This document shows, one piece after another, positions 21,784 to 62,041 of a stretch of DNA of 64,000 nucleotides. Numbering within the stretch: the stretch's first letter is position 1; each line of letters opens with the position of its first letter. The notes under the pieces are model-generated. The model was not told where the DNA came from. It ran no database searches and saw only the letters and a program-made list of their open reading frames with translations. The DNA comes from a virus. The DNA lies in the IMG/VR virus record IMGVR_UViG_3300020473_000021, positions 69,568 through 133,567 of that record, one strand, 5' to 3'. Position numbers and translations under genes: made by a program.

Positions 21784-21839
21784 AGACGATCTCCTTTGTG
21801 AAAAATACAATTTGTCATAGCATTTAAAGTGAGGACGCT

Positions 21840-26400: not shown

Positions 26401-27625
26401 GCGTGGTTTAACCAACAAATATGAGTCGGGTAAAACGGGTGCGGCATCAATGTTGAGTACGTCTGCATTGTTAGCACCAGGTTCTGATATCGATGATCCT
26501 AAACGTGTTAACTTCGTGTCTATTCAAAATACTCACGTGGTTTCTGCTGAAGGCTATGAAACTATTCCACTGCGTACTGGCTATGAGCGGGTTATTGCGC
26601 ATCGCGTTGATGATCTGTATGCATATACAGCTAAGGCAGATGGTGAGATTGTAGCGGCAGATGATGAGCACGTTAAGGTGAAATATAAAGATGGTACTGA
26701 AGTTGCTGTCGAAATAGGGACTCGTTACGGTAGTGTTACTGGAACGACTGTACCACACCAAGTACGTTCTAACGTCAAGGTGGGCGATAAAGTCAAAGAA
26801 GGTAATGTCATTACGTATAACTCTGGGTTCTTTAGTGTCGATCCACTCGATCCTAAACAAGTACTTATGAAAGGCGGTATCTTAGTTAAGACGGCCATCA
26901 TGGAGCGTTCACACACGTTTGAAGATGCGTCAGTTATTTCTGAGAAACTATCTGCTCGATTAGGTACTAAAATAACTAAGGTAAGAACCGTGTTGGTTTC
27001 GTTTGACCAAAACATTCGTAACTTGGTTAAACCTGGAGATGAAGTCGACATCGATAGTCTTCTGTGTATGATCGAAGATTCATCAACAACAGACACTGAC
27101 TTGTTTAGTGAGGATAGCCTCGACAGCTTGAAGTTAATGTCGTCTAATGCACCAAAGGCTAAAGTGGCTGGTAAGGTCGAAAAGATCGAAGCGTTCTATC
27201 ATGGTGACATGGAAGATATGCATGAATCAGTTAAGTCTATTGCTAAACGTTCTGATCGTCAGAGAGTTAAGCGATTAAAAGCATTGGGTGAAAAGGCAAC
27301 GACAGGACAAGTAGATGGTACTGTTCGCATCGAGAAAGATCCTTTAGATATCGACACCATGGCGATTAAGATTTATATCACAAAAACGTTAGGTGCTGGT
27401 ATTGGCGATAAGGGCGTTCTTGGTAATCAGATGAAAACCGTCTTTAGTAGTGTCATGACAGGTACCAACCAAACTAAGTCAGGTACTGACCTTGATATGT
27501 TGTTTGGTTACATGAGTATCAACAACCGGATTGTGTTAAGTCCGGAACTCATGGGTACGACAAATACACTACTGAAACTTATGTCTAAGAAGGTTGCCGA
27601 CAAATACTTCGCCACGAAAAAGTAA
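23474..27625 (+). CDS. virion RNA polymerase beta subunit (phiKZ gp178-like)
   Basis: SEATPDSGAVG, DDPKRVNF, FEDASVIS and GDKGVLGNQMKT RpoB-like motifs. Confidence 0.92.
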   Translation: MMVVYPTFYRKHGIWKSQDVASPSVSDYSELVMPKESILHYLTFEDSSIGPDPNDPFFVNSDNRVLVEHVTQHIKPIGNPKPNKGVTEERLKRDYHRRYRKMRPLNDFSRSLRDEKTLIVENYAGLSDLYIYMRSVYGLYYRNYNILNTLFKVVNDRCKDNERQHFIPVTLPRRLPSLQMLKKASGEYSKIPRDLLTVFSQPQYLMVLEIFKWLGEDRQYSTLSNIDPQNYDKVNFIWMESGKFVVFNLGKVLEVTQNEVGEDDEDVGSSKLQRLFLRMLISLFELRNAGVKTSVNEGEEEKPEDSDEVEGVSVKGKSEAQVDEEKIEKDIEKLSEISDREVPEEELTFDDIPGDVKDPTDSLTQRIQQLAEEGGLSPAQVRRYEKIIEKTRNIPNPYGDGKLLDFSKITDEDLQLSEEEIKLPDVAGVTDESMTESTLKAFDSKYLNEVLKKDIVNCAMDIQRAGVTVLAYDVEEVKDAANDYQVVTMQLSPVDGETSTIRFKVPNVKENGEFVSNNVKYRLRKQRADKPIRKVSPSTVSLTSYYAKVFVDRSEKSVVNYPRWIIKQTLGLSEQENPVVTGTRLVNCFDNTVRLPRIYTIMSERFREFTVNGQYRLFFDYNKRTEEFGEDFIKQHEQEGFVVAGVSLERGKAPILVDENNVFYIKKGDQLDILGPIETILGLDPSKAPVEIAEFRLFSKTIPVAMVLGFRFGLSRLMSLLGVQPRRVPVGSQVNMSDNEFGIRFADETLVLTKDDPKAQLILAGFNRYHKTIARYNVDSFDDPEIYENVLEDNGLRVGFIRELELAMDMFVDPITRDLLEQMGEPTALDRLLIRACELLTIDWHPDETDMEAMRIRGYERMAGAVFSEITRGVRRYRSRGVGSKAKIEINPEAVWQVINQDPSISQVEESNPIQNLKEKELVTYMGTGGRSTRSMVKHTRRYHPSDMGVISEATPDSGAVGVNTYLTANPQFANLRGLTNKYESGKTGAASMLSTSALLAPGSDIDDPKRVNFVSIQNTHVVSAEGYETIPLRTGYERVIAHRVDDLYAYTAKADGEIVAADDEHVKVKYKDGTEVAVEIGTRYGSVTGTTVPHQVRSNVKVGDKVKEGNVITYNSGFFSVDPLDPKQVLMKGGILVKTAIMERSHTFEDASVISEKLSARLGTKITKVRTVLVSFDQNIRNLVKPGDEVDIDSLLCMIEDSSTTDTDLFSEDSLDSLKLMSSNAPKAKVAGKVEKIEAFYHGDMEDMHESVKSIAKRSDRQRVKRLKALGEKATTGQVDGTVRIEKDPLDIDTMAIKIYITKTLGAGIGDKGVLGNQMKTVFSSVMTGTNQTKSGTDLDMLFGYMSINNRIVLSPELMGTTNTLLKLMSKKVADKYFATKK

Positions 27626-44998: not shown

Positions 44999-47900
44999 AT
45001 GAATATCGAACAACTCTCTAAAGAGATAAATAAAGTCGTCCGAGTACTGGGCGATAAGCTATCGGCTAGACATAATGAATTGGATAACCGAATAGCTTCA
45101 CATGAGCAACGTACTGATAATCCACATGCCGTTACTAAACAGCAAGTGGGCTTAGGTGAACTACCTAATGCAACTACCATCAGTCGGAGTGATGAGTCGA
45201 CGGACAAGTTACTCCTTGCTAGATCGCTCGCCGATCACACGAATAATAGTACCGATCACGACGATCGGTATTATACTCAAGTGCAAGTCGACGATAAGGA
45301 TACGTCAGTTCTAAATGCGGCTAAGGGATATACTGACACTAATGTCAATAATACCAATGAAGCATTGGAATTCCATAAATCGTCTACTGACCATGATGAC
45401 CAGTATTACACTCAAAGTCAAGTAGACGATAAAGATGCGTCTGTATTGTCGCAAGCAAAACAACATGCAGATAACGTATCTCAACAAAATTCCACTGAAG
45501 TAAACAACAGTCTAGAAACCCATAAGTCGTCAAACGACCATGATACGCGTTACTATACTCAACTTCAATTGGATGATCGTTTTGAAGGTCTTGTTGGGGA
45601 CATTAATTCTGCGTTGTCTAATCGTGACGAAGCATTCGAGACACACAAAGACTCGAATGATCACGATGAGCGTTATTATACGAAAACTCAAATCGATAGC
45701 CAAGTAAGCACTATCAATACGACTATTTCCGATAATGATACTGCACAAACGCAGGCGCTTGAGACACATAAAACATCGACAGATCACGATTATCGTTACT
45801 ACACTAAAACGCAGATCGACGATCAGATGTCTTTGGTAAATCAAACGATCAACCAGAACGATACCGATCAAACTCAAGCTCTGACAACACACAAAGGGTC
45901 TGGCGACCATGATGGTCGCTATTATACTCAGACACAAGTGGATACGTTAGCCTCGACTATACGGGATGAAATATCTCAAACTGGAAGTTCGGCTACGACT
46001 GATCTAGAAAACCACAAGACTTCAACAGACCACGACTATCGTTATTATACGAAAGCACAGGCGGATGCTCAGCTTGCTCTTAAAACGGATATCAGTAGCA
46101 TTGTAGATAATTTAACATCTACATTAGTGGATGTTCCTTTAAGTGCTAATCAGGGTCGAGTGTTGAAAGGTTTAGTCGATCAAATCAACGCCACTATTAT
46201 GTCCGACGATGCAACCCTTGATGAGTTGCAAGAGATTGTGGACTTCATTAAACTCAATCGAAATGAGTTAGATGCATTGTCGATATCTGGTGTAGCTGGA
46301 CTACAAACTGCACTTGATGGTAAAGTTGATAAGGTCACTGGTAAAGCGTTGTCGACTAACGACTTAACTGACGTGTTGTTAGCTAAATTGCAAGGCATTG
46401 AAGATGGTGCTCAAGTAAACCGACCCATCACCAATAGTCGCACTACAAACAGTGCTGAGACAGCATTATCGGCCAAGGGCATGAATGATCACGTGATGAG
46501 TGGTGATCATGATGGTCGCTACTACACGCATACTCAGGTAGATAGTAAAGATGCTGCTACTTTACAATCAGCAAAAGAATACGCCGATAGCGTTGGGTCA
46601 AATACCGGTACACAGGCTACTCAAGACTTAGATGCGCATAAAACGTCTACTGATCATGATACTCGTTATTATACACATCAACAAGTAGATGATGCGATTG
46701 CCGCTGCAAAGAGTGAGGCTATTTCATCTGCGAACAGTTCTTTGACGACACATAAATCGTCAACAGATCACGATAGTAGATACTACACACAGACTCAAGT
46801 TGAGTCTATGTTGGCTGATACTCAAAGTGCGGCTGAAAGTACCGCTAGTGGTGCATTGACTACACATAAGAGTTCGGGCGATCACGATGGTCGATATTAC
46901 CGTAAAGGTGAAATCGATACGAAATTATCTCAAACTCAATCTGCTGCGGAAAGTACTGCAAGCACTGCGCTATCGAATCACAAATCTTCTGGCGATCACG
47001 ATGGGCGTTACTATACGCAATCTCAAATCGATCAGAAGTTTGCGGATGTTCAATCCACTATCGACCAAGGTGTGGCCGACGACCTTAATGCTCACAAATC
47101 TTCAAGTGACCATGATAGTCGTTACTACACTCAAAGTCAGGTGGATGCGAAAGTATCTGGTGCAGAAAGTCGAGCTACATCATTGACTGAAACTCGTTAC
47201 GAGCAAGTCCTATCGGAATTCGTTAAGACGGATGTTAAGATAGCTGCGCGTGGTGATGATGTTGAGGCGATGAAAGGTACTGAGCAATCTTTCCAAGAGA
47301 TATTTAACTCTTGGATGAGATTCAGTCGTAGTACTAGTGGTTTAGGTAATGAAGCCAATCCAGCAGAACTCACTGAATGGATCTACAATTCAACAGACGA
47401 CACGATCGAGTGTGCTATAAACTCAGGCTCTTACATTGGGTTTATTTCACCCGATAAGTTTGAAGAATATGTGTTTGAAGTTAAGATGAGTTCGACCAGT
47501 ACTGATGACGATTGGATTACTGTTGTTGCGGCTTATGCTGAAGACAATAATGGTAATGGCTTCACGCTTGACGTTGTTCGTGCTCTCAATGGCGATGCAC
47601 CTATGGTTATTAATTATAATCATAGTTCGCAGGGCACCATTAAGTTGGCTGAAGTGCTTGACCCACTACACTGGGGTGATGGAAATATCGCTACTGGCCC
47701 AATCGGTGGTAATACGCTACCGGGTTGGGGTAATGGTTCACCCAACGGTGTTCGTGTTAAAGTTACTCGCAATGGTGACATATTCACTATTGAGACAACT
47801 CAAACGAATGATGGTAGCGACAACTACCTACCGGGTGCTACAGTAACGATTGACTTAAATAGTCGACCTGAACTATCGGTGTTTAAAGGTCCTAAGCAAT

Positions 47901-48271
47901 ACGGTATCGGTGCACAATCTCAGGCTAACTCAACTTGGGATTTCATTCAGAAACCAAGTTCACTAGAAGACATCGTGGATGTCGTCAATGGTGTAGTTTG
48001 GCGGTATGATTCGGTCAGCGGGTGGACTTCTTCAGCGATCACTGATGCAACTCAATACGTTACACCAGATCGTGTTTATCGAAATGATGGACGCATATTT
48101 GTATCGGATGGCGAAGGAAACATCTTAGAGGTTGCTACAAAAGATCCTCTAACTGGTAGTATTCATGCTGGCGACAGCGTGACCCTCGGTGGACCCGACG
48201 CTTCGGGTGCTCGTTATAGCGTTTCCTATGACAGCGACACCGATTCTTTGGATGTTACCCATTTGGGATAA
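44999..48271 (+). CDS. tail fibre protein with His/Asp repeats and C-terminal lectin-like domain
   Basis: NPHAVTKQQVGLG motif, 13 H-x4-DHD-x-(R/Q)YY repeats, LDELQEI and GKVDKVTGK fibre motifs, beta-rich C-terminus. Confidence 0.8.
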   Translation: MNIEQLSKEINKVVRVLGDKLSARHNELDNRIASHEQRTDNPHAVTKQQVGLGELPNATTISRSDESTDKLLLARSLADHTNNSTDHDDRYYTQVQVDDKDTSVLNAAKGYTDTNVNNTNEALEFHKSSTDHDDQYYTQSQVDDKDASVLSQAKQHADNVSQQNSTEVNNSLETHKSSNDHDTRYYTQLQLDDRFEGLVGDINSALSNRDEAFETHKDSNDHDERYYTKTQIDSQVSTINTTISDNDTAQTQALETHKTSTDHDYRYYTKTQIDDQMSLVNQTINQNDTDQTQALTTHKGSGDHDGRYYTQTQVDTLASTIRDEISQTGSSATTDLENHKTSTDHDYRYYTKAQADAQLALKTDISSIVDNLTSTLVDVPLSANQGRVLKGLVDQINATIMSDDATLDELQEIVDFIKLNRNELDALSISGVAGLQTALDGKVDKVTGKALSTNDLTDVLLAKLQGIEDGAQVNRPITNSRTTNSAETALSAKGMNDHVMSGDHDGRYYTHTQVDSKDAATLQSAKEYADSVGSNTGTQATQDLDAHKTSTDHDTRYYTHQQVDDAIAAAKSEAISSANSSLTTHKSSTDHDSRYYTQTQVESMLADTQSAAESTASGALTTHKSSGDHDGRYYRKGEIDTKLSQTQSAAESTASTALSNHKSSGDHDGRYYTQSQIDQKFADVQSTIDQGVADDLNAHKSSSDHDSRYYTQSQVDAKVSGAESRATSLTETRYEQVLSEFVKTDVKIAARGDDVEAMKGTEQSFQEIFNSWMRFSRSTSGLGNEANPAELTEWIYNSTDDTIECAINSGSYIGFISPDKFEEYVFEVKMSSTSTDDDWITVVAAYAEDNNGNGFTLDVVRALNGDAPMVINYNHSSQGTIKLAEVLDPLHWGDGNIATGPIGGNTLPGWGNGSPNGVRVKVTRNGDIFTIETTQTNDGSDNYLPGATVTIDLNSRPELSVFKGPKQYGIGAQSQANSTWDFIQKPSSLEDIVDVVNGVVWRYDSVSGWTSSAITDATQYVTPDRVYRNDGRIFVSDGEGNILEVATKDPLTGSIHAGDSVTLGGPDASGARYSVSYDSDTDSLDVTHLG
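45236..47135 (+). repeat. 13 copies of HKxSxDHDxRYYT spaced by helical segments
   Basis: Counted in the translation; boundaries approximate. Confidence 0.85.
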
Positions 48272-51205: not shown

Positions 51206-54200
51206 ATGTCATTAGTAGCAAGATGGCCACTCAATGGTCATGCTAGAGACATAGTGGGTGGCTTAGATGCCACCCGAGTTTCTGGATCTGGCCTAACTTG
51301 GAATACGTCGCCTATTGGGCTAGGTGCACAATTTAATGCAAACGATGACCGCATCATCATTCCACATGACGACTATATAAACAACCGCTGTTTTGGTAAA
51401 TCAAAAGAATTTTCAGTATCGTTCTTTTATTACCCGATAAGTTATTCGGATTATGGGTGTGTCATTCAAAAAGCAAGAGCAGGTAGTTGGTCTAACAGCA
51501 CGATGGGTGTCTGGATATATAGTGGTGGAATAAGATTCATCATGGGATCTGATGTATCGGGTAATCCATCGGCTAGCTATACTGCCATAACTAAAAAACC
51601 CCCAGTCAATCAATGGGTTCATGTAACGTGTATCGCCGATAGTAAAGAGATGGGGATGTACCTAAATGGTGAATTGGTAGGTAGAGTGGATATATCCACC
51701 ATATCACACCCTAGGACGTCCAACGACGCACCCATCACCATAGGTCCAAGATACGATAATGATGGCACCTACAGTAGTCTTAGGGGCGTTATAGCAGACA
51801 TCAAGTTATATGATCACGTTTTAAGTAAACAAGAGATAATGGAAAATGGACTTGGGTTAATGTCTCATTGGCCGTTAACCAATCCACCCATTAATGGTGA
51901 GATATCTGGCGATTGTATAAACTCATCAAATGCAACGTTGTTACCGGACTACCTATATAAAGGAGGTATACCGGGTGAAATAACGTCTTACATTGAATTT
52001 ACTGGAACGTTAAATGGTGGCGTATCGTTACCTAAAGATGATTTCTCTCAGAACTCAAAGTGGGGATCTGTTAGTTTTTGGTTTAAGATAGATCAGCTAA
52101 CAAACTACAAACAATGGTTGTGGCATACCTATGTAAACCGAGATCGTGGAACCTATATCTCGGAAACAGGTGAAATAGTTGGTTTAGTTATACGTGGCGG
52201 TACTGATCCTAGTGCAGGTGAGTTTGCGACAGGTAAAACAATAAATGTTGGTGAGTGGCACCACCTAACGATGAGTTGGAATATATCCACTGGTGCAATC
52301 CATTTACATCTAGATGGTGTGTTAATACATACTGAGAATACTGGAAGTTGGACTGATGTTGAAAATGGCGATGAGACAACTATAGGTACCAGTACTGTGG
52401 GCGGTAGAACCATATTAGGTAAAGTTGCACACTTTAAAACGTTTGCTAGTCCACTTAGCTCACATCAAGTTAAGTTGTTGTATAAAAAGAGAACATCTAT
52501 GTCAATGGAGGGTGCTCTCAATATCGAGAACTTAGATGAGGGATATGATCGAATTGCCGCAAAGGGTGAATTTCTTGTTGTAGATAGTGGGTTTTATGGT
52601 GACATACCCATATACGCCTATGAGGACAATACAGACCTTTATATCGGTGGGTATAAGGTAGCTACCCTATCACGAGGGGAGAGTTATACGTTACCTACGT
52701 CGATGCAGTCAGTTGGATTATCGATAAGTGCTTTTGGCAAACCCATCAGTATCGGCGGTACCCGCAACTGCATTTCAACACGTTGGGCCGGTAAAGCATT
52801 TGGTGTATGGGTCGATAGAGATCCAGGTGAAATTGTTATATTCGCACCTTTCTCAGATGCGACTGTAGAGGTCGTTAGTACTCCGTTTGCAGATGCGACA
52901 GAGACAATCTCAACCATAACCATTCCGGCTGGAGAAAGTCATGCGGTGCCAAATGAGATACAGTACTTATATTTCATTCGATCGAATGTTGATATATGCG
53001 TTTATGCGATGGGTGTGAATTACGATAATCGACCCGTATATCCCGCATCTAAAGAGCTGTATGGTATCGCCAGTGGACACGCGGATCTCGTTTCTCTAAC
53101 TGATGGTGATGTTGAGGTATTTGGATCTGACGGTAGTTATGTCGACTATGGATTCAAAAGAAAGAATAGTGGTACCGGGAATGTAGCGGCGACTGGGGGT
53201 CTTTATACTGGGGCATCTAGTTTAATAAAAGCTACCGGGTTAGTTTGCGTACATGCACAAGCAGATAGTGACGGTGGTGAAATAACCCCGTTTATAACTA
53301 AAGACGCTATGTCAACACATTTCTTACTCCCTAGCGATTGTGACTTTGTTGCATTTGTAGGATTGGAAGATAACGTCGCAGTTAAACATCTCGATACTAA
53401 CATGATTGAACAACAATCCACCACAGCCATTTCTAATGGTGAAGGATTCCCGAGTAAGGCTAGGTTAGAAGGTGGTCTTTTAGCTGGACATTGGATTATC
53501 TGTGATCGTCCCGTGTACGCTATAATGCAACCTACAGCAACAGACGACGAAACTGTCCTTTATGGATATAATCCGGATGTAGACAACGTATATCGTGAAC
53601 ACATCGATAAGTTTAGTGAAAACGGTTTATTCCCACAGGAATACATAGCCTACTTACCATTACACTCCGATGTGGTTGATCATGGCGTAAATGGTTTATA
53701 TCACGATTCTATCAGCAAACCAGTTAAGTCAGATCGTGGATTCACGTTCGATGGGATAGATAACTACTTAATGGTCTTATCTAACCAAGAAGCTGCCGAT
53801 TTTATCGGTCAACCGGAAACTCAGTCAATCACGATAGCTATGTCGTTTAAGAGTCTTGGCTCTTTAGCAACGAGCTCTGCATCGGCTAGGTTAATAACGA
53901 GGGATGCTTCCGACTATTGGGCTGTTGGTATCGACCAGACGTCTGGGTTCCCACAACGCTTGAGGTGGTGGGATGCTTCTTCTGCATATAGTGAAGTCGG
54001 AGCAATAACTGATGGTTGGCACCGCTTGGTTATGATTAGAGATTTGAATACTAATGTCGGTAAAATGTATCTCGATGGTAACTTACTTGGTGAATTTGTC
54101 GCTAGCTCAGGACCCGGTTCAAGTAGACCGATCTTAATTGGAGCCAATACCGAACAACAAATCAATAACACCGGAGATGCTTTCTACGGTGACATCGAAG

Positions 54201-54331
54201 ATGTTCACGTTGTGGCTGGAGTTGTATCGGAACAACATGTTAAGTCTGACTATCAGAGATTCGTGAAAAGAAATCGATCTTTATCGTTTGATAGATCTAG
54301 CAAAAATGTATATCAATTAATCGAGAGGTAA
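51206..54331 (+). CDS. LamG/concanavalin-like multi-domain putative adhesin
   Basis: Three LamG-like units (WVHVT..MYLNGELV, WHHLT..LHLDGVL, WHRLV..MYLDGNL) plus a central IgGFc-binding-like segment. Confidence 0.75.
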   Translation: MSLVARWPLNGHARDIVGGLDATRVSGSGLTWNTSPIGLGAQFNANDDRIIIPHDDYINNRCFGKSKEFSVSFFYYPISYSDYGCVIQKARAGSWSNSTMGVWIYSGGIRFIMGSDVSGNPSASYTAITKKPPVNQWVHVTCIADSKEMGMYLNGELVGRVDISTISHPRTSNDAPITIGPRYDNDGTYSSLRGVIADIKLYDHVLSKQEIMENGLGLMSHWPLTNPPINGEISGDCINSSNATLLPDYLYKGGIPGEITSYIEFTGTLNGGVSLPKDDFSQNSKWGSVSFWFKIDQLTNYKQWLWHTYVNRDRGTYISETGEIVGLVIRGGTDPSAGEFATGKTINVGEWHHLTMSWNISTGAIHLHLDGVLIHTENTGSWTDVENGDETTIGTSTVGGRTILGKVAHFKTFASPLSSHQVKLLYKKRTSMSMEGALNIENLDEGYDRIAAKGEFLVVDSGFYGDIPIYAYEDNTDLYIGGYKVATLSRGESYTLPTSMQSVGLSISAFGKPISIGGTRNCISTRWAGKAFGVWVDRDPGEIVIFAPFSDATVEVVSTPFADATETISTITIPAGESHAVPNEIQYLYFIRSNVDICVYAMGVNYDNRPVYPASKELYGIASGHADLVSLTDGDVEVFGSDGSYVDYGFKRKNSGTGNVAATGGLYTGASSLIKATGLVCVHAQADSDGGEITPFITKDAMSTHFLLPSDCDFVAFVGLEDNVAVKHLDTNMIEQQSTTAISNGEGFPSKARLEGGLLAGHWIICDRPVYAIMQPTATDDETVLYGYNPDVDNVYREHIDKFSENGLFPQEYIAYLPLHSDVVDHGVNGLYHDSISKPVKSDRGFTFDGIDNYLMVLSNQEAADFIGQPETQSITIAMSFKSLGSLATSSASARLITRDASDYWAVGIDQTSGFPQRLRWWDASSAYSEVGAITDGWHRLVMIRDLNTNVGKMYLDGNLLGEFVASSGPGSSRPILIGANTEQQINNTGDAFYGDIEDVHVVAGVVSEQHVKSDYQRFVKRNRSLSFDRSSKNVYQLIER

Positions 54332-54335
54332 TAAG

Positions 54336-54755
54336 ATGGCTAATCTAAAAGATACCACGGTCAATGGTGAGTTGCGCGTGACGCGTGGTGTTAAAATGCT
54401 AGGGCCTCTCTTGAGGTTTTTCAAGAGTCCGACGTATGGTACTGGTGAGCCAATAGAATATGTTAAGGTCGTCGATACTGACGTCAATATCGGTGCCAAT
54501 ACGAATATCCAATATAACTTAGGCGATTACGTTAGTGATGTTTCTAAGTTTGATATTCGAGGGGCTCGTATTGAAGTTACCGCCTTGGATACCGAAACGG
54601 GGTCTCCTACAAATGGCGACTACGTAAACTCAGAAGCAATGATCACTAAAGCTATCTCTGGTGGTAATGCTGTTAAACTACATAACTACTCTAACGCAAC
54701 TGCTCAATGTAAGGTATATATCGCACTTCCCATTAAAGCAAGGGCTAATGCATGA
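54336..54755 (+). CDS. small fibre-associated protein
   Basis: 139-aa beta-rich ORF coupled (ATGA) to the next gene. Confidence 0.65.
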   Translation: MANLKDTTVNGELRVTRGVKMLGPLLRFFKSPTYGTGEPIEYVKVVDTDVNIGANTNIQYNLGDYVSDVSKFDIRGARIEVTALDTETGSPTNGDYVNSEAMITKAISGGNAVKLHNYSNATAQCKVYIALPIKARANA

Positions 54756-57700
54756 TAGTAAAACCGAATAAGGTACCGGGACACTACCCGGTACCCATCG
54801 ACTTGAGATTAAAAGGCGAGTCGTTAGTAGACACTGTTGCATTGTCTAAAAACGCTGCGCCTCCGGCTAACTCTAAATACATCGGGTATGATGAGTTAAC
54901 GCCACCTAATCCATTTCTTGCTGTTACTCAAGATGGTAAAGGTAATGTTGTATATGACGGTGGTTTTCCTAAGTTCTACAATACTAGATCTTTACCTGCT
55001 GGAACACCTTTCAGTGAGTTGAATGCACAACATAAATTCCTTTGGAATGCTGTAAACTTTATTGCCAATAAGCAAAAGGTTGCATCTGGTAATAAGGAAG
55101 TGTTGTTAATTGGCGATCGAACTGCCGATAATTACTGGGTGAAGTCGACCATCGGTAATGGTTTTAAGACCACATTCACCAACGTCATTACGACGATGGG
55201 TTACAATCTAACCATTAAGGATGCAAACGATTACGGTGGTATCATCGATGCGACCTTAAGTGAGTTGGAACAATACTGTTGCGTTATCTTCATGTCGTCT
55301 TGGTATACAGACCAGCCAAAGATAACACAAGCATGTATCAATAACTTCCTGACATATCGTCAAAACGGTAGTGGTTTGTTTTTCATCACTGACCACGGTA
55401 ACGTCATTAATGATTTTGATACAGCAGTTAACGGTAGTTATAGTGGTTTCTTTAGAACTGCCAATGCCATTACGGTTAACTTTGGTGCTTGGTTCTCTGG
55501 GAACTACGATAGAACGAGTGTAAATGTTGGTTACCTACGAAACAACTATGGCGATCACCCACTTTATAGTGGTTTGTCTGATGCTGAAAACATTTCTGCG
55601 GGTGGTAGTGAGTCTGAGGTTGTTTTGGCGAGTAATGACACATTCTCGGGTGATGCGATACCTGACATAAACATAAACTCTAGTGGCGTCAATACAGTCA
55701 ACGTTTTATCAGTTACAAAAGATGGTGAGGTTGTCACTGAGCGATATCTATACACCATTGGTAGTAATCCGCTTGTTAGCGTTAAAACTCAAGGTACGAG
55801 AATTCCATTCGGTGGAACTATTGAGACCTATAAAAAGTTTGCTGACTTTGACTTCATCAATAACTTTCCTGAACTGGGTACGCTAGTGGGTGAAGTTTAC
55901 ATCGATGGCGTTTATCTGGGTACGGTGAATATAGACGGTAATAGATCCACCTACAAGTGGATAACCGATCCATTGACACCGATTATATCTGGTAGCGATC
56001 TACGGCTTGAAATCATACAACCATATCGCTATACGTTAAATTGGACCATCAATCAGTTGAGTACTGGTTTTGGCGATGCTAGAAGTAAATGGCGGTTGTT
56101 TGATACTGATTTCATAAAAGGTAGGGGTTTGGGTTTAATACGCAACATAAACTCTCACTTTGCCGAATCAATCAAACCGACATATCGTCCGGATAGCGCG
56201 AGTGTACTTGATGATTTGGAAGTGTATGAAAGTGGTGAGGTTGACTTTGGATCAATCGAGGTTTACTTAGTTGGTGATTTTCAGGAGATATTCAACAACA
56301 GACTATTCAGTCCAACCGAGAAAGTCACTGTGGTGAACAGAAACACTCGGGAGGTATATCTACCTACTGATAATGGTTGGGTTTTATCCGATAAGTCCGC
56401 TGGTGAACTTTTGGGCGTGGGAAGGACATTGATTGATAAGTACAATCGTTCCACTTACGTAACAACAGATCAACCTAGAGTTAACGTTACTTATCCAGAA
56501 CAGACACCGCTTTACGATGACCAAAAGAAATATGGTTACTGTAGCATCGTCCAATCTCCGTATCTAACTTGGTGGGTTCCAATTGAAGTATTGACCGCCA
56601 AATGGATCTGGGATAGAACTACAGCAGGTAGTACAGCTCCTGTAAATGAATCTGTACATTTAAGAAAGTGGTTCAATAGCCCCTATACTGGAACGGCAAC
56701 TTTAAAAGTTGGTTGTGATGATGCTGTAAACGGTCTGTGGGTAAATGGTGAGCTGGTTAAATCTGGTAGTATAAACCATCAACTGGGTGAAACGCACACC
56801 ATTAACGTAAGGCAAGGCATGAATTTGATTCATGCAGAATGTTACAACAGTGGTGGACCTGCTGGTTTCTTAGCCTACATCTTAAGTAGAGATGGTGACT
56901 TACTTACTAAGACCGATTCTAGTTGGTTGAAGTACTCGATCCCCAATAAGGACATTGGTGCCATTCGCGTTACTAACGATGACGATATATCGATTCCTTA
57001 CGATGAAAATATGGTTTTATCGCCAGATGACGTCATTGAGTATGAAGTCGATTTTCGTTCCAATGGACCACCTGGTGGGTGTCTGGTATCTATACACTAT
57101 TACAGGGATTCTGTTGGTGGTACACACCGTGGATTAGATATCTATAGTGGTAGCGGTAGTTCATCGTTAGCGGCTCACCTAATACATAATTGGGAAAGTT
57201 CTGGTGGCGATCAGGCCATTCGCATAAATACCGATGTGGGTGGTAATGGTTTTGTAGATGTCTGGGATAATCAATGGCACAATATTAAAGTTGTCTACGA
57301 TGGTTCTAGATTGGAAAGTGGTTTGTCGATGTATGTCGACGGAGTAAAACAACCACTACAGACTGCTCCAGACAACCCAAGAGCGGGAAACCAGTCATTG
57401 TTGAATGCTGGTGTTCTAAGTGCTAAAGGGGCACCCGTTAGAGTTGGGGGTAGAACTAATGTGGACGACACACCTTACTATCCATTAAATACGGGCGACT
57501 ATAAGAACTTTAAGATAAAGCGCAATGGTGTAGTGATTGGTTACTACCCGATGCATGAGTCTTATAATGGTCGTTTCTTCGACTATGGTGTATATAGCGT
57601 CCATTCAGATGTTGCTCCACCAACGACCACATCATGGACGACTAGCTGGAATACGTCCAGATCTACCGAATGGACAACAAGTTGGACGAGTAATAAAACA

Positions 57701-58666
57701 ACGAGTTGGACGACGTCGGTGGATACAAGTCGTGGTACATCACACACGACAAATTGGACAAGTAGCTATACCACAAGTTGGGGAACTTCAAGAGGAACAA
57801 GTCGTAGTACTACGATAAGTACATCTTGGAGTACATCAAGGACAACCACTTGGGATAGTAGTCGTACGACAAGTTATACTACTAGCTGGACTGGTAGTCG
57901 GACTACGAGTCGGGTGGAATCTAAAACCACTAGTTGGACAACCAGTTGGTCGGGTAGTCGCAGTACTAGTCGAACTGAGTCTAGGACGACATCGTGGACT
58001 ACGTCATGGAGTGCCAGCAGAAGTACCAGTCGAACCACTAGTAAGAGTTACTCTCGTTCTACTTCGAAAGGTACTTCATGGACGACGAGTTGGACTGGTA
58101 GTCGTGGTACTAGTCGTAGTACTAGTAAGAGTACTTCTAAATTGACGAGTCGATCTACCTTTATCGGTCCTATCGACGTTTGTATTTCTTTAGATACTAA
58201 ATTAATGTTAGCGTCTGGGGAAACAATGGATGCGAGACACGTTAAAGTTGGTGATGTCCTTAAGGGTGTTGATATCGAAGGTATGATCGATGAATCAGAC
58301 CCACGTTGGGAAAGTTGGTCTACTCGATATTTAGAAAACCCTAGGATAAAAGACGTAACTGTAAAACACGTTAGATTTGGGTCATTTAGGGCTATCTATC
58401 TCGTTAACAACAAGTTAGCTATAACCAAGCAACATAAGGTACTAGCTAAACACAACGGACGGTGGTCTTGGTGGGATATACGAGATATTGAACTTGGCGA
58501 TATCATGTTGGATCAAAACCTAGGTGAGGTAGAGGTAGAAAAATTAGACTATTTAGATGGTGACGTAGAAACCGTAACTATTGATGTTGAAGAGTCTGAT
58601 ACTTACTTTGCTGGTGGGTTGTTGGTTCACAACATACCCGGTGGCGGAAGCCAAGTTAAGAGATAA
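54752..58666 (+). CDS. multi-domain putative virion appendage protein: carbohydrate-binding/LamG-like domains, 44 TTSX repeats and C-terminal Hint domain
   Basis: Jelly-roll-like AKWIW...GCDD..WVNG...GPAGF; LamG-like WHNIKVVYDG..MYVDG; Thr/Ser/Trp/Arg tetrapeptide tract; CISLDT...VKVGD...TYFAGGLLVHN. Confidence 0.8.
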   Translation: MIVKPNKVPGHYPVPIDLRLKGESLVDTVALSKNAAPPANSKYIGYDELTPPNPFLAVTQDGKGNVVYDGGFPKFYNTRSLPAGTPFSELNAQHKFLWNAVNFIANKQKVASGNKEVLLIGDRTADNYWVKSTIGNGFKTTFTNVITTMGYNLTIKDANDYGGIIDATLSELEQYCCVIFMSSWYTDQPKITQACINNFLTYRQNGSGLFFITDHGNVINDFDTAVNGSYSGFFRTANAITVNFGAWFSGNYDRTSVNVGYLRNNYGDHPLYSGLSDAENISAGGSESEVVLASNDTFSGDAIPDININSSGVNTVNVLSVTKDGEVVTERYLYTIGSNPLVSVKTQGTRIPFGGTIETYKKFADFDFINNFPELGTLVGEVYIDGVYLGTVNIDGNRSTYKWITDPLTPIISGSDLRLEIIQPYRYTLNWTINQLSTGFGDARSKWRLFDTDFIKGRGLGLIRNINSHFAESIKPTYRPDSASVLDDLEVYESGEVDFGSIEVYLVGDFQEIFNNRLFSPTEKVTVVNRNTREVYLPTDNGWVLSDKSAGELLGVGRTLIDKYNRSTYVTTDQPRVNVTYPEQTPLYDDQKKYGYCSIVQSPYLTWWVPIEVLTAKWIWDRTTAGSTAPVNESVHLRKWFNSPYTGTATLKVGCDDAVNGLWVNGELVKSGSINHQLGETHTINVRQGMNLIHAECYNSGGPAGFLAYILSRDGDLLTKTDSSWLKYSIPNKDIGAIRVTNDDDISIPYDENMVLSPDDVIEYEVDFRSNGPPGGCLVSIHYYRDSVGGTHRGLDIYSGSGSSSLAAHLIHNWESSGGDQAIRINTDVGGNGFVDVWDNQWHNIKVVYDGSRLESGLSMYVDGVKQPLQTAPDNPRAGNQSLLNAGVLSAKGAPVRVGGRTNVDDTPYYPLNTGDYKNFKIKRNGVVIGYYPMHESYNGRFFDYGVYSVHSDVAPPTTTSWTTSWNTSRSTEWTTSWTSNKTTSWTTSVDTSRGTSHTTNWTSSYTTSWGTSRGTSRSTTISTSWSTSRTTTWDSSRTTSYTTSWTGSRTTSRVESKTTSWTTSWSGSRSTSRTESRTTSWTTSWSASRSTSRTTSKSYSRSTSKGTSWTTSWTGSRGTSRSTSKSTSKLTSRSTFIGPIDVCISLDTKLMLASGETMDARHVKVGDVLKGVDIEGMIDESDPRWESWSTRYLENPRIKDVTVKHVRFGSFRAIYLVNNKLAITKQHKVLAKHNGRWSWWDIRDIELGDIMLDQNLGEVEVEKLDYLDGDVETVTIDVEESDTYFAGGLLVHNIPGGGSQVKR
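57626..58153 (+). repeat. 44 tandem tetrapeptides (T/S-T-S-X), outbound tract
   Basis: Direct parse of the translation from TTSW TTSW NTSR to STSK LTSR, with no register break. Confidence 0.92.
58181..58633 (+). other. Hint (intein-like/BIL-type) autoprocessing domain, 151 aa, no endonuclease
   Basis: Cys1 (CISLDTKL), block B-like ITKQH, block F-like TIDVEESDTYF, terminal His-Asn; +1 residue is Ile. Confidence 0.88.
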
Positions 58667-58677
58667 CGGGAGCTACT

Positions 58678-59241
58678 ATGGCAACAACGAGTTGGACGAC
58701 GTCTTGGAGTACGTCTAAAGGTACGTCGTGGAATACAAGCGTTGGAAAAAGTAGGGGGACGAGTCGTTCCACGTCGAAGGGGACGTCTTGGAGTTCTAAC
58801 GTAACAACCTCTTGGACTACTCGATGGACAGCATCTCGCGGTACTAGCGTGACGACGTCGTGGTCGACGTCTTGGAACACTTCGGTTAGTTATAGTCGCT
58901 CGACATCTAGGTCGACCGATAAAACAACTAGTTGGAGTACCAACGTTGCATATAATCGTACGACAAGCTATACGACGACTTGGTCTAATAGTCGAACGAC
59001 AACATGGAACACTAGTATAAGTACCACGATCACTACCTCATGGACAACTAGTTGGAATACGTCTAAAACTACTTCGGTGGCGAAGAGTAAGACAACGAAC
59101 TATAGTACATCGTGGAATACTAGCTGGACTACATCTAAGACGACATCGGTTAGTGGTTCTAGGTTGACTTCAAGGACGACGACGTTTCAGACGTCTAAAT
59201 CGACATCGACTACATTAGGTATAAAGCAACTAACGCTGTGA
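58678..59241 (+). CDS. protein composed almost entirely of TTSX repeats (putative partner strand)
   Basis: GGGAG SD; MA + 44 tetrapeptide units + TLGIKQLTL. Confidence 0.8.
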   Translation: MATTSWTTSWSTSKGTSWNTSVGKSRGTSRSTSKGTSWSSNVTTSWTTRWTASRGTSVTTSWSTSWNTSVSYSRSTSRSTDKTTSWSTNVAYNRTTSYTTTWSNSRTTTWNTSISTTITTSWTTSWNTSKTTSVAKSKTTNYSTSWNTSWTTSKTTSVSGSRLTSRTTTFQTSKSTSTTLGIKQLTL

Positions 59242-59329: not shown

Positions 59330-62041
59330 ATGAGTGAATTAAATTTCAAATACCCTCTAGATCTAACTGGTGTTGATTCTGTCAACCGGGTCTTAGGGGA
59401 AGGACACTCAATAGGCGAAGGTTTTAATCGACTAATCGTTCCTATTGAAGGTGCTTTTTATACCGACGGGTTGATTGTTCGAGATACCGTGAATGGCGGT
59501 GAACTTGTTCCTAAAGATCAATACCTACCTATTTTATTCTACCAAGAACCTTCCGAGCGAAGTGGTAAGGAAGTATGTTGTGCTATCGCTATCGTTGATC
59601 GTAGCGTTAGTACAGAAGTTGAGATTGAGTACCAAGCGGTAGGTGATGTTTACTCTAACATCACTAGTTTGATACTTGATAAAGTAACCGACATTAACCT
59701 CGATGACTATAATCTCATCTGGGGTGATCTACTGGGAAACCTAGATGTTTTTCCCGGTGATGGCGATCTTAGAGAGTTGGGCGCAATATATGGCTTTGAG
59801 TTCGTAGCTAAAGCACTCAATGATTTAAGGGATGCGATCTTCTTTGGTGATATCGATGATCACGATCGATTAAAGCAAGTGATAGAAAATAAATATCAGT
59901 TAGCTTACAACAAAGCTGTCAACATCAATGATGAGGCTGAAGCCCATTATGCTCGCACTGACGATCCTCATGATGTTACTAAACATCAGATTGAGTTAGG
60001 TAAAGTTGACAATCATCCAACTGCATCGGTTGAAGATGATGTTCAGGGTACGAATAATCAGAAATATAGTACGCCTGCTGGTATTCGTGATTCTATTCGC
60101 ATCAACGCTATAGAGCCTTTGAATTCCCACATCAACAATACTGACGATCCTCATGATGTAACGCAAACGCAAATAGGTTTGTCTCGGTTGCATAACTGGT
60201 CGACTCCAGATAAAGCAACGGCTGAACTGGGTGAGTCTACCGAACACTACATGACGCCATTGTCGTTATCTCAAGCGATTGCGGCTCAACTTGGTGATGC
60301 GATAGAAGAACATGTAGCAAATAAGAGCAACCCACACCAAGTGACAAAAGCGCAAGTGGGACTATCACGTTTGGGTAACTATCCACCCGCTAGTGAAGCT
60401 GAAGCTGTCGAGGGTGTCCGGTATGATCGGTTAATAACTGTTAAGAATGCGGGCGATGCAATAAACGCTAGCGCTAAACCTCTTCTAGAGGAGCACGTTA
60501 ACGATTTCAATAACCCACATGAGGTTACTGCTGCTCAAGTAGGGTTGGGTAATGTGGATGATGTATCGTTTGCTCAAATGCAAAACCGATATATTGAGAA
60601 AGGGAAAGCATCGACCGTTACTGTTGTGGGACCAACTCAAGCTCTGCAAGGTGAAACTGTAGAATGGGTTATCACCAATTACGATATCTTTACCAATTAT
60701 GATATCTCCGGTGATTTCGGTGACCTTACAGTTAATGGTGATACCATCAGTAAAACTATTGATTCGTCAACACCAACGGGCGATCGGACGCTGTCTATTC
60801 GTGTGGGTAATAATACTCGTGAATTACCAATTAAGATCATTGGTCGTGGTGTTAATAAACCAAGTATCACTAGTCCGAATGATGATGCTCGCGGCATCTC
60901 ACTTAACACGACGATGACGAGTAGTTCATTTACAACAACACCTTCTGGTATCGATAGTCATGAGTCTAGTCAATGGCAACTATCTAAAGTAGTTGACTTT
61001 AGTAGTATTGCTGTCAACGAAACTGTGGGTGGTAGTGAACGTACAGCTTGGAGTACACCTACACTCGATAGAAACTCTGTGTATTATGCACGTGTTCGAT
61101 ATAAGGGTGCTGGATCTGGTTGGAGTCCTTGGTCTGATGTAATCATGTTTAAGACTGCCGATATCACAACGACTAGTTTCTCCACTAGTCGCACCACCGA
61201 TAAGGCAACTAACTGGAATAGTAGTTACACTACTCAATGGCAGAGCTCTCGGGCAACGAGTCGTACGACTAGTCGTCAGACTGTTGTGGGTAATGTGTAT
61301 ACTACTCAATATCAGACTAACTTCACTACAAGTTGGACTGGTAGTCGCAACACTAGTGTACCGCAATCTAAACAAACATCTAGAACGGTAAGTCGTACAA
61401 CGAGTTGGACGACAACTTACTCAGTTAGTCGTAGTACTACGAAAACTACGAGTAGGTCAACTTCGGTGGCTACCACTAGAATTACATCGGTAACCACGTC
61501 AAGAACTACGAGTAAGACTACGAGTAAGACTACTAACTACACCACTTCGTACATGTACGATGATGGTCGAAGCCCCAGTAGTTGTTTGCAGGGTTACTAC
61601 GATGGTCCTTACTATAGATGTATGGAACCTGGTGTACCTAAGCGGACATATTACACTACGCAGAAATCTACTAGTTACACCACTTCTTGGACTACTAGTT
61701 GGAGTACGAATAGATCAACATCCATTAGCGTCAATAAGACAACCTCTTGGAGTTATAGTGCCAACACCAGTGTGCAGACGACAGAAACGTTATCTCGCAA
61801 TACTAGTTGGACTACGACATATACAACCAATTGGTCTGTCGATAGATCAACAGATGTTAATTATAGTCGCAGCACCAGTAGAACGACCGAACAAATATTG
61901 GACAACAGTGATGTTCGTACAACATCATGGACCACCAATTATACTTCGTCGTGGACAAACTCTAGAACAACAGAGTCAGCCACAAATCGCACTACTGCTA
62001 AGACGACAACGTTCCAAACTTCACGCCCAACCGAAGTTTAA
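59330..62041 (+). CDS. tail fibre-like protein with FN3 domain and C-terminal TTSX hairpin
   Basis: phiKZ-type fibre N-terminus (YPLDLTG..N), four (D/N)PHxVT..Q(V/I)xL repeats, FN3-like YYARVRY..GWSPWS, then 32+32 tetrapeptides around a Cys-Cys loop. Confidence 0.8.
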   Translation: MSELNFKYPLDLTGVDSVNRVLGEGHSIGEGFNRLIVPIEGAFYTDGLIVRDTVNGGELVPKDQYLPILFYQEPSERSGKEVCCAIAIVDRSVSTEVEIEYQAVGDVYSNITSLILDKVTDINLDDYNLIWGDLLGNLDVFPGDGDLRELGAIYGFEFVAKALNDLRDAIFFGDIDDHDRLKQVIENKYQLAYNKAVNINDEAEAHYARTDDPHDVTKHQIELGKVDNHPTASVEDDVQGTNNQKYSTPAGIRDSIRINAIEPLNSHINNTDDPHDVTQTQIGLSRLHNWSTPDKATAELGESTEHYMTPLSLSQAIAAQLGDAIEEHVANKSNPHQVTKAQVGLSRLGNYPPASEAEAVEGVRYDRLITVKNAGDAINASAKPLLEEHVNDFNNPHEVTAAQVGLGNVDDVSFAQMQNRYIEKGKASTVTVVGPTQALQGETVEWVITNYDIFTNYDISGDFGDLTVNGDTISKTIDSSTPTGDRTLSIRVGNNTRELPIKIIGRGVNKPSITSPNDDARGISLNTTMTSSSFTTTPSGIDSHESSQWQLSKVVDFSSIAVNETVGGSERTAWSTPTLDRNSVYYARVRYKGAGSGWSPWSDVIMFKTADITTTSFSTSRTTDKATNWNSSYTTQWQSSRATSRTTSRQTVVGNVYTTQYQTNFTTSWTGSRNTSVPQSKQTSRTVSRTTSWTTTYSVSRSTTKTTSRSTSVATTRITSVTTSRTTSKTTSKTTNYTTSYMYDDGRSPSSCLQGYYDGPYYRCMEPGVPKRTYYTTQKSTSYTTSWTTSWSTNRSTSISVNKTTSWSYSANTSVQTTETLSRNTSWTTTYTTNWSVDRSTDVNYSRSTSRTTEQILDNSDVRTTSWTTNYTSSWTNSRTTESATNRTTAKTTTFQTSRPTEV
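61169..62026 (+). repeat. two 32-unit TTSX tracts flanking a 30-aa loop (61553-61642)
   Basis: Direct parse: TTSF...TTSY / MYDDGRSPSSCLQGYYDGPYYRCMEPGVPK / RTYY...QTSR. Confidence 0.9.

What the first reader, a model, noticed from the sequence alone, without database searches (positions are those of the whole stretch)
58154..58695. Non-canonical Hint domain sits exactly where the hairpin tip should be: cleavage, cargo attachment or trans-ligation?
Seen: Cys1, TxxH and terminal His-Asn are intact, but +1 is Ile and only 10 residues (IPGGGSQVKR) follow. Established: canonical protein splicing needs Cys/Ser/Thr at +1, while BIL and Hedgehog-type Hint domains lacking it cleave or transfer the N-terminal part onto an external nucleophile. 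Inference: the predicted register places the partner's N-terminus (M-A-TTSW) next to the Val-Cys thioester (STFIGPIDV/C). The Hint could ligate the two gene products into one hairpin, attach a small molecule or host-surface amine to the stalk tip, or simply release itself after assembly.
Basis: partly seen in the sequence, partly recalled or inferred. Interest (0 to 1): 0.85.

Follow-up and report, generated by a model that had tools for sequence, protein, structure and literature searches.

The report
Self-processing Hint domain capping phage fibre
A jumbo-phage fibre protein ends in an intein-like (BIL-type) self-processing domain followed by a ten-residue tail with a single lysine, a design shared by hundreds of phage fibre proteins and probably used to cut the domain off, and perhaps cap the fibre tip, after assembly.

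Summary
ORF 54752..58666 (1304 aa) ends in a 151-residue Hint domain: Cys1144, T1225-x-x-H1228, His1293-Asn1294, +1 Ile, tail IPGGGSQVKR. The single sequence misses Pfam thresholds. A family profile, however, hits solved BIL domains (6Y75 E 8e-15, 2LWY 2e-12) ahead of inteins and Hedgehog, and an AF2 model (pLDDT 92) agrees.

It belongs to a large family with no Pfam model of its own (962 clusters). The domain usually sits at the extreme C-terminus of phage fibre-like proteins. Catalytic residues are kept in 123-146 of 148 copies. A nucleophile at +1 is rare (12/117).

A new point is that 114 of 117 short tails carry a lysine, usually exactly one near the end (control 41±5). The closest solved relative, Tetrahymena BIL2, splices onto a lysine to form an isopeptide.

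The "hairpin" premise gains support. The same genome holds a second [repeat arm-Hint-11 nt-partner] pair and a fused paralogue without Hint. Arm lengths match in all three (188/187, 142+7/147, 129/131).

Best reading: self-excising BIL cassette, possibly resolved by its own tail lysine. Trans-ligation to the 187-aa partner is not excluded, but the family-wide pattern does not favour it. No experimental evidence was found.

The parts
54752..58666 (+). Fibre/virion structural protein, 1304 aa. N-terminal phrog_11065 domain (aa 3-436), a weak LamG-like stretch, the period-4 repeat arm, the Hint domain and the tail.
57617..58180 (+). Arm 1: 188 aa (956-1143) of period-4 repeat x-T-S-[W/R/K/Y], ending ...STFIGPIDV
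   Evidence: autocorrelation 0.44-0.48 at multiples of 4 against about 0.1 elsewhere
58181..58633 (+). BIL-type Hint domain, Cys1144 to Asn1294 (151 aa)
58181..58183 (+). Cys1 codon (C1144), the predicted thioester-forming nucleophile
   Evidence: conserved in 123 of 148 copies, and 18 of the rest are N-truncated fragments
58424..58435 (+). Block-B T1225-K-Q-H1228 (TxxH)
   Evidence: T in 135 of 148 and H in 139 of 148
58628..58633 (+). Terminal His1293-Asn1294
   Evidence: each in 146 of 148
58634..58663 (+). Ten-residue tail IPGGGSQVKR with one Lys (K1303, nt 58658-58660)
58668..58672 (+). GGGAG ribosome-binding site of the partner gene. The partner frame has a stop at 58657-58659, so the partner is translated on its own.
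   Evidence: read directly
58678..59241 (+). 187-aa all-repeat partner (arm 2 equivalent), M-A-TTSW...TTTFQTSK...
59330..62041 (+). 903-aa fibre paralogue with both arms fused and no Hint: arm 612-740, two-Cys loop 741-772 (nt 61550-61645), arm 773-903

Best explanation
Residues 1144-1294 form a catalytically competent bacterial-intein-like (BIL, A-type-like) Hint domain. It is used as a removable C-terminal cassette on a phage fibre.

Inferred mechanism:
1. Cys1144 attacks the Val1143 carbonyl (N-S acyl shift), giving a thioester at the end of repeat arm 1.
2. With no +1 nucleophile, the thioester is resolved by an amine or by water. The favoured candidate is the epsilon-amine of the single lysine in the domain's own flexible tail (K1303). 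That would leave the ten-residue tail isopeptide-linked to Val1143.
3. Asn1294 cyclises and frees the Hint domain.

The net result is a mature fibre without the 151-aa domain. Arm 1 pairs with the separately translated 187-aa partner, as the two arms do in the fused paralogue.

What is shown: domain identity, fold, conservation of the catalytic residues, the lysine-tail signature, the paired-gene architecture and the matching arm lengths. What is inferred: every chemical step, the removal itself, and arm pairing.

Sub-confidences: competent BIL-type Hint 0.9; self-removal from the fibre 0.65-0.7; the tail lysine as the resolving nucleophile about 0.35.
For: (1) Sequence relatives among solved structures. 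A profile of 49 family members hits solved BIL domains first: Tetrahymena BUBL1 BIL2 6Y75/6TMM at E 8e-15, and the C. thermocellum BIL 2LWY at 1.7e-12. Inteins follow from 2.7e-7 and Sonic hedgehog at 0.008.

(2) Fold. AF2 gave pLDDT 91.9. The top Foldseek PDB hits are 6Y75 (E 6.9e-10, TM 0.69/0.76) and 2LWY (TM 0.68/0.83), then mini-inteins, then Hedgehog 1AT0.

(3) Conservation over 148 near-full copies taken from 152 proteins (the best 150 plus P0004 and P0005): Cys1 123 (18 further copies are truncated), T 135, H 139, terminal H 146, N 146. That argues for catalysis, not a relic.

(4) Architecture. 117 of 148 copies are followed by only 1-16 residues. C/S/T at +1 occurs in 12 of 117. Residue -1 is Gly in 66 of 123, often within a poly-Gly linker.

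(5) Lysine tail. 114 of 117 short tails contain Lys. The expectation is 23.8 from composition, and 41.2±4.8 (maximum 57 in 2000 draws) from C-termini of the 91 ORFs of at least 150 aa in the own genome. 108 of 117 have exactly one Lys, and the last Lys is the final or penultimate residue in 72 of 114.

(6) Precedent. BIL2, the closest solved relative, forms an isopeptide (Lys epsilon-NH2 to C-terminus) using a nucleophilic lysine of its C-extein (passages of PMC8616854). BIL domains lack the +1 nucleophile and give mainly N- and C-cleavage products (passages of PMC7664689).

(7) Phage-fibre context. 40 of 49 members match phrog_38766, annotated 'virion structural protein'. Others match tail-fibre PHROGs and Collagen, PASTA, Ig, fn3 or GP38 Pfam families.
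Against: No experiment bears on processing. I found no virion proteomics or biochemistry for any member. The Erwinia phage Y3 paper, which may hold mass-spectrometry coverage, is not in the library.

The window's own tail has its Lys at +9, whereas most family members have the first Lys at +1 to +6. Its -1 residue is Val, which is rare (4 of 123).

Lysine enrichment could reflect docking or charge rather than nucleophilic attack.

Isopeptide capping with a ten-residue peptide has no obvious benefit, and why a fibre needs a removable Hint is unexplained.

The single sequence fails the Pfam and NCBIfam thresholds.

The fused paralogue suggests that a covalently closed tip is the functional state, which would favour ligation over simple removal.
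Confidence: 0.6

Rival explanations
1. Trans-ligation closes the hairpin. The thioester at Val1143 is attacked by the alpha-amine of the partner's N-terminus (Ala2 after Met removal). This joins arm 1 and the 187-aa protein into one chain equivalent to the fused 903-aa paralogue.
For: The gene pair occurs twice in the genome with the same 11-nt spacing and an own ribosome-binding site. Both partners begin M-(A/P)-TTSW. Arm lengths match (188/187, 142+7 Gly/147), and the fused paralogue has 129/131 around a 32-aa loop. Partners and arm 2 of the fused form share a T(T/S)FQTS(R/K) motif near their C-terminal ends. The title of Aranko et al. 2013, seen only in the reference list of PMC7664689, reports BIL ligation without nucleophilic side chains.
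Against: The same cassette, with its lysine tail, ends hundreds of unrelated fibres. These include Y3-type collagen-like chains whose downstream partner chains are N-terminal paralogues of the Hint-bearing chain, so on the inferred parallel collagen-type packing their N-termini would lie at the far end. Both copies in this genome keep the Lys-bearing tail. Pro as the N-terminal amine in the second pair is a poorer nucleophile.
Confidence: 0.12
2. Hedgehog/BUBL-like conjugation to an outside nucleophile. The Hint stays on the assembled fibre until the thioester is captured by a lysine of another virion protein, giving a covalent staple, or by an amine on the host surface, giving covalent adsorption.
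For: The closest solved relative, BIL2, conjugates its N-extein to lysines of several substrates (passage of PMC8616854). The flexible poly-Gly stretch before Cys1 in much of the family resembles a conjugation handle. The domain would lie at the distal tip if the hairpin model holds.
Against: The near-invariant terminal His-Asn (146 of 148) and the own-tail lysine point to a self-contained reaction. Hedgehog-type transfer does not need the terminal Asn. No candidate acceptor was identified.
Confidence: 0.12
3. N-terminal cleavage by hydrolysis only, a plain autoprotease. The tail and its lysine serve folding or docking, and Asn cyclisation merely trims the tail.
For: BIL domains give predominantly cleaved products (passage of PMC7664689). 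It is the simplest chemistry. This is a sub-case of self-removal and is counted within the best explanation's 0.65-0.7 for removal.
Against: It does not explain why 114 of 117 tails keep a lysine, usually exactly one.
Confidence: 0.25
4. A retained, non-catalytic knob, or the decayed remnant of a true intein.
For: A free-standing degenerate copy lacking Cys1 and TxxH exists in Phage NCTB. Only a sub-threshold single-sequence Pfam hit was found.
Against: All four catalytic positions are conserved in 83-99% of 148 diverse copies. There is no homing endonuclease, no +1 nucleophile and no conserved host-protein insertion site.
Confidence: 0.05

Closest known systems
Tetrahymena thermophila BUBL1 BIL2 domain (PDB 6Y75, 6TMM)
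   Same: Best sequence-profile hit (E 8e-15) and best fold hit. It has the Hint fold with Cys1 and a terminal Asn. It is reported to splice onto a lysine, forming an isopeptide, which matches the lysine-tail signature found here.
   Different: It is eukaryotic and flanked by ubiquitin-like domains that are the cargo and the acceptor. Here the N-extein is a phage fibre and the C-extein is a 10-residue peptide. Structural-alignment identity is only 12-13%. No zinc-site comparison was made.
A-type bacterial intein-like (BIL) domain, Clostridium thermocellum (PDB 2LWY)
   Same: Second-best hit (E 1.7e-12; TM 0.68/0.83). It lacks a +1 nucleophile and gives mainly cleavage products.
   Different: Recalled, not tested here: bacterial BILs sit inside variable secreted proteins with sizeable C-terminal flanks. 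Here the domain is terminal, on virion fibres, with a 1-16 residue Lys tail.
Canonical class-1 mini-inteins (for example gp41-1, Ssp/Npu DnaB)
   Same: Same fold and the same A, B, F and G block residues (Cys1, TxxH, HN).
   Different: No Cys/Ser/Thr at +1 (Ile here; 12 of 117 in the family). No functional C-extein to restore, no homing endonuclease, and no insertion in a conserved enzyme site.
Hedgehog C-terminal autoprocessing (Hog/Hint) domain (1AT0)
   Same: Hint fold (E 2.9e-6). It uses only the thioester step to transfer the N-terminal part to an outside nucleophile.
   Different: Hedgehog lacks the terminal His-Asn and carries a sterol-recognition extension (recalled). Here HN is near-invariant and only a short tail follows.
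PT-HINT (PF07591) of polymorphic toxins, for example Streptomyces UmbC (8W20; named from the search listing of PMC11062931)
   Same: It is the Pfam family hit most often by family members (25 of 49 at E<=1e-3).
   Different: PT-HINT precedes a C-terminal toxin domain that it is thought to release. No toxin or any other domain follows here. The window's own domain does not hit PF07591.
C-terminal intramolecular chaperone (peptidase S74) of phage tailspikes and fibres (recalled; Schulz et al. 2010 seen only in a reference list)
   Same: Functional analogy only: a C-terminal module of a phage fibre that cuts itself off after assembly.
   Different: Unrelated fold and chemistry (serine-lysine dyad against Cys thioester and Asn cyclisation). 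No sequence match was found.

Membership tests
Hint superfamily | Hint fold | tested here: met
   AF2 pLDDT 91.9. Foldseek found 63 PDB matches at E<=1e-3; of the 42 rows listed, 40 are inteins or BIL domains and 2 are Hedgehog.
Hint superfamily | Match to Hint-clan sequence profiles | tested here: met
   The single sequence is sub-threshold only. In the first scan, 10 of 10 members gave sub-threshold hits to PT-HINT, Intein_splicing, Hint, Hom_end_hint, Hint_2 or Vint, and none reached a gathering score. The family profile against the PDB is significant.
BIL domain (A-type) | N-terminal Cys, block-B TxxH and C-terminal His-Asn | tested here: met
   C1144, T1225/H1228, H1293-N1294; conserved family-wide.
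BIL domain (A-type) | No nucleophile at +1 | tested here: met
   Ile1295. C/S/T at +1 in 12 of 117 short-tailed copies.
BIL domain (A-type) | Closer to known BILs than to inteins or Hedgehog | tested here: met
   6Y75 at 8e-15 and 2LWY at 1.7e-12, against 2.7e-7 for the best intein. Foldseek gives the same order.
BIL domain (A-type) | Autocatalytic N- and C-terminal cleavage or splicing | not testable with these tools
   Needs expression and mass spectrometry.
Canonical class-1 intein | Cys/Ser/Thr at +1 | tested here: not met
   Ile1295.
Canonical class-1 intein | Interrupts a host protein whose C-extein is restored by splicing | tested here: not met
   Only 10 residues follow. The partner gene is in another frame behind its own ribosome-binding site, with a stop in that frame at 58657-58659.
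Hedgehog/Hog Hint | Ends without His-Asn and carries a sterol-recognition region (features recalled) | tested here: not met
   HN is present and near-invariant. There is no extension.
PT-HINT (PF07591) | Reaches the Pfam gathering score and precedes a C-terminal toxin domain | tested here: not met
   No PF07591 hit for this domain at E<=1. No domain follows.
Peptidase S74 intramolecular chaperone | Sequence or fold match | tested here: not met
   No such Pfam or PHROG hit. The fold is Hint.

The most novel reading that the evidence does not exclude
The Hint cassette is an ATP-independent, ubiquitin-conjugation-like ligase built into phage fibres. It activates the fibre's C-terminus as a thioester and forges a new amide bond. 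That bond either closes the two-gene beta-hairpin by joining Val1143 to the partner's N-terminus, or links the fibre tip through an isopeptide to a lysine of another virion protein or of the host surface. The single-lysine tail would be the default acceptor. This would make covalent tip chemistry a widespread feature of phage fibres (962 clusters).
Probability: 0.2. Interest if true: 0.9.

Novelty: new variant of a known kind. Interest (0 to 1): 0.66.

Why it matters
Hint domains at the ends of jumbo-phage tail proteins are noted in a few GenBank annotations ('contains intein domain'). I found no paper that treats them.

This work shows three things:
- They form one large family with no Pfam model of its own, closest to BIL domains.
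- All catalytic residues are kept.
- They carry a previously unremarked single-lysine mini-tail, which matches the lysine-directed isopeptide splicing reported for the closest solved relative.

That turns 'odd intein annotation' into a sharp hypothesis that can be tested cheaply about how phage fibres mature.

The genome also offers a natural experiment: the same fibre type exists once as a fused two-arm chain and twice as a split pair with a Hint at the break. If the chemistry is confirmed, the cassette could serve as a compact tool for C-terminal protein capping or ligation.

Tried and rejected
- **Single-sequence PDB search** gave nothing meaningful. Only the family profile worked.
- **NCBIfam:** no hit for the window's domain. 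The second copy reaches 14.1 bits against a 15.6 cut-off for intein_Cterm.
- **megablast against phages:** no match.
- **The search for related loci in viral contigs:** no relatives with the single protein or with the 4-sequence alignment A3.
- **Metagenome scan**: 33 distant loci at 24-35% identity. Most belong to a 431-aa clade in which about 106 residues follow the Hint. None has the period-4 repeat, so they say nothing about the partner gene.
- **The search for homologous proteins with the 187-aa partner:** no hit. The protein-atlas search gave only leads below 0.9 to viral hypothetical proteins.
- **AF2 of the fused two-arm region of ORF903 without an alignment:** pLDDT 35, uninterpretable.
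- **Complex prediction of arm 1 with the 187-aa partner:** verdict 'no answer', score 0.00. This is not evidence either way.
- **Read-through or frameshift** joining ORF1304 to the partner was rejected. The frames differ, and the partner frame has a stop at 58657-58659, leaving no room for a shift.
- **Literature:** the Y3 paper is not held. One search failed on a term that was too short.
Full report
**What is there.** ORF 54752..58666 (+) encodes a 1304-aa protein.
- Its first 436 residues match phrog_11065, annotated 'virion structural protein'.
- Residues 956-1143 are a strict period-4 repeat, x-T-S-[W/R/K/Y]. Autocorrelation is 0.44-0.48 at multiples of four against about 0.1 elsewhere.
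- The chain then reads ...STFIGPIDV-C1144-ISLDT..., I-T1225-KQ-H1228...LLV-H1293-N1294, and IPGGGSQVKR-stop.
- Eleven bases later, behind a GGGAG site, starts a 187-aa protein made wholly of the same repeat (M-A-TTSW...).
- The partner's frame has a stop at 58657-58659, so the partner is translated independently. Read-through or frameshifting into it is not credible.

**Setting.** The window is the last 64 kb of a 133,567-base virus record, estimated 48% complete. Nearby genes match a tail sheath, a large terminase and a phage RNA polymerase beta subunit. That points to a phiKZ-like jumbo phage. The genes from about 45 kb to 62 kb are large fibre-like proteins.

**Is it a Hint domain?**
- The single sequence only grazes Pfam (Intein_splicing, E 0.0059, 16.9 bits against a cut-off of 35.8). 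It hits nothing in NCBIfam or, as a single sequence, in the PDB.
- Relatives settle the matter. tblastn finds the domain in 52 phage records: 48 Erwinia jumbo phages, 2 Dickeya, 1 Yersinia and Phage NCTB. Some are annotated 'putative phage tail protein, contains intein domain'.
- phmmer against 1.84 billion representatives gives 962 clusters at E<=1e-3 and 222 at E<=1e-10.
- A profile of 49 members hits the Tetrahymena BUBL1 BIL2 domain (6Y75/6TMM, E 8e-15) and the Clostridium thermocellum BIL domain (2LWY, 1.7e-12). Inteins follow from 2.7e-7 and Sonic hedgehog at 0.008.
- The AF2 model built on that alignment is confident (pLDDT 91.9, pTM 0.87). Foldseek ranks the same two BIL structures first, then mini-inteins, then the Hedgehog domain.
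- In a first scan, 10 of 10 members gave only sub-threshold hits spread over six Hint-clan Pfam families. Over 49 members, 25 hit PT-HINT and 15 hit Intein_splicing at E<=1e-3.

The family lies inside the Hint superfamily, nearest to BIL domains, and has no Pfam model of its own.

**Family anatomy.** I re-aligned 148 near-full copies. They come from 152 proteins: the best 150 plus P0004 and P0005.

| Position | Copies conserved (of 148) |
|---|---|
| Cys1 | 123 (18 further copies are N-truncated fragments; 7 carry another residue) |
| Block-B Thr | 135 |
| Block-B His | 139 |
| Terminal His | 146 |
| Terminal Asn | 146 |

- The +1 residue is K 31, A 25, I 17, L 10, V 10 and so on. Among the 117 copies followed by only 1-16 residues, C/S/T is at +1 in 12.
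- Residue -1 is Gly in 66 of 123, often at the end of a poly-Gly run.
- So the domain is nearly always the last thing in the protein, it keeps a full catalytic set, and it lacks the canonical splicing nucleophile.
- 29 copies have longer C-terminal extensions or stand in tandem arrays separated by 3-5 residues.
- N-terminal partner domains include collagen repeats, PASTA, Ig, fn3 and GP38-type adhesin domains. 40 of 49 members match phrog_38766, and others match tail-fibre PHROGs. Foldseek against viral models returns many 'uncultured Caudovirales' proteins.

- 114 of 117 short tails contain lysine. Lys is 16% of tail residues against 3.6% in the same proteins overall.
- The expected count is 23.8 from composition. 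It is 41.2±4.8 (maximum 57 in 2000 draws) when the C-termini of the 91 ORFs of at least 150 aa in the own genome are used as control.
- 108 of 117 tails have exactly one Lys. The first Lys is mostly at +1 to +6. The last Lys is the final or penultimate residue in 72 of 114.
- The window's tail (IPGGGSQV-K-R) and its paralogue's (IPGGGVVV-KK) fit, with an unusually long spacer.
- BIL domains in general lack the +1 nucleophile and mostly give N- and C-cleavage products (passages of PMC7664689).

**The 'hairpin tip' premise.** The same record holds a second copy of the Hint (62% identical).
- It closes a 1027-aa protein whose first 610 or so residues are paralogous to the window's ORF 59330..62041 (E 7e-106).
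- That protein has a 142-residue period-4 arm, seven glycines, Cys1, the Hint and the tail IPGGGVVVKK. After 11 nt and an AGGAG site comes a 147-aa all-repeat protein starting M-P-TTSW.
- The window's 903-aa paralogue carries no Hint. Its two arms (129 and 131 residues) are joined by a 32-residue, two-Cys, aromatic-rich loop.
- Arm lengths therefore match in 3 of 3 cases: 188/187, 142+7 Gly/147 and 129/131.
- Both free partners and arm 2 of the fused form share a T(T/S)FQTS(R/K) motif near their C-terminal ends.
- The repeat occurs only at these three loci in the record.

This is good comparative evidence that the downstream protein is the second arm, and that the Hint sits where the fused form has its loop. 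It is not structural proof. AF2 on the fused region without an alignment gave pLDDT 35.

**Which reaction?** The cassette is general.
- In Erwinia phage Y3 and its relatives it ends a collagen-like chain (gp110). Two paralogous collagen-like chains without a Hint follow (gp109, gp108). Their N-terminal regions are paralogous to that of gp110, so on the inferred parallel collagen-type packing their N-termini lie at the opposite end from the Hint.
- A role that needs the partner's N-terminus cannot be the family's common function. The own-tail lysine, the near-invariant Asn and the flexible linker all point to a self-contained reaction.

I therefore rank the readings as follows:
1. Self-excision of the Hint, with the thioester resolved either by the tail lysine (an isopeptide cap, by analogy with BIL2) or by water.
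2. Trans-ligation to the partner, attractive here because a fused paralogue exists.
3. Transfer to an outside lysine or host amine.
4. A non-catalytic knob, which the conservation makes unlikely.

All chemical steps are inferred. No proteomic or biochemical study of any member turned up. The Y3 paper is not held.

**Novelty.** The domain type (BIL) and the bare annotation 'intein domain' on some jumbo-phage tail proteins are known. Three points appear not to be in print, within the limits of those searches:
- the size and coherence of the family;
- its terminal position with a single-lysine mini-tail;
- the split-versus-fused fibre pair in one genome.

I class it as a new variant of a known kind, of moderate to high interest, because one simple expression experiment would decide among the mechanisms.

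Noticed in passing
window 57617-58180, 58678-59241, 61163-62041; G000:C1 about 46800-48100 (L006 8836-10220): A strict period-4 protein repeat, x-T-S-[W/R/K/Y], runs 130-190 residues with almost no indels and occurs only in three fibre loci of the record. Its fold is unknown. Single-sequence AF2 gave pLDDT 35, and no Pfam or solved relative was found.
   Followed up: partly
window 57583-57747(-), 57874-58038(-), 58656-58880(-): Antisense ORFs rich in V, Q, L and D across the repeat DNA look like by-products of the repeated codons rather than genes.
   Followed up: no
L001 2744-3205 (Phage NCTB BN7874_135): A free-standing 153-aa degenerate Hint copy lacks Cys1 and TxxH but keeps VHN-K. It sits directly after a Hint-ended collagen-like tail protein.
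   Followed up: partly
L002 6975-9545 (Erwinia phage Y3 gp110, gp109, gp108); L003 likewise: Three consecutive paralogous collagen-like chains, each with one Cys in the Gly-X-Y region. Only the first carries the extra domain and the Hint. This suggests a heterotrimeric collagen-like fibre in these phages; Y3's paper title calls it a 'hairy' myovirus (reference list).
   Followed up: partly
proteins P0009, P0035, P0078, P0087, P0088, P0129: Tandem arrays of two or three Hint copies separated by only 3-5 residues (for example HN-IPPK-C), reminiscent of poly-BIL loci.
   Followed up: no
loci L010-L037: A freshwater-metagenome clade of 431-aa proteins in which the Hint is followed by a conserved extension of about 106 residues, starting with K at +1 in related representatives (P0082, P0116, P0150).
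   Followed up: no
window 51206-54331: A 1041-aa protein with three Laminin_G_3/concanavalin-like stretches (E 5.8e-46) lies just upstream of the fibre genes. It is probably another receptor-binding protein.
   Followed up: no
window 14422-21810 (-) and 23474-27625 (+): A 2462-aa ORF of unexamined function lies next to a phiKZ-type RNA polymerase beta subunit gene (phrog_3148, E 0).
   Followed up: no
L001 4569-11053 (Phage NCTB 132 and 131): The NCTB Hint-ended protein is also 1304 aa long but has an unrelated N-terminal part. It and the next gene share an '...ETFKVVISNPS...' stretch seen by eye; I recall this as Calx-beta-like but did not test it. So the gene after a Hint-ended gene again shares a module with it.
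   Followed up: no
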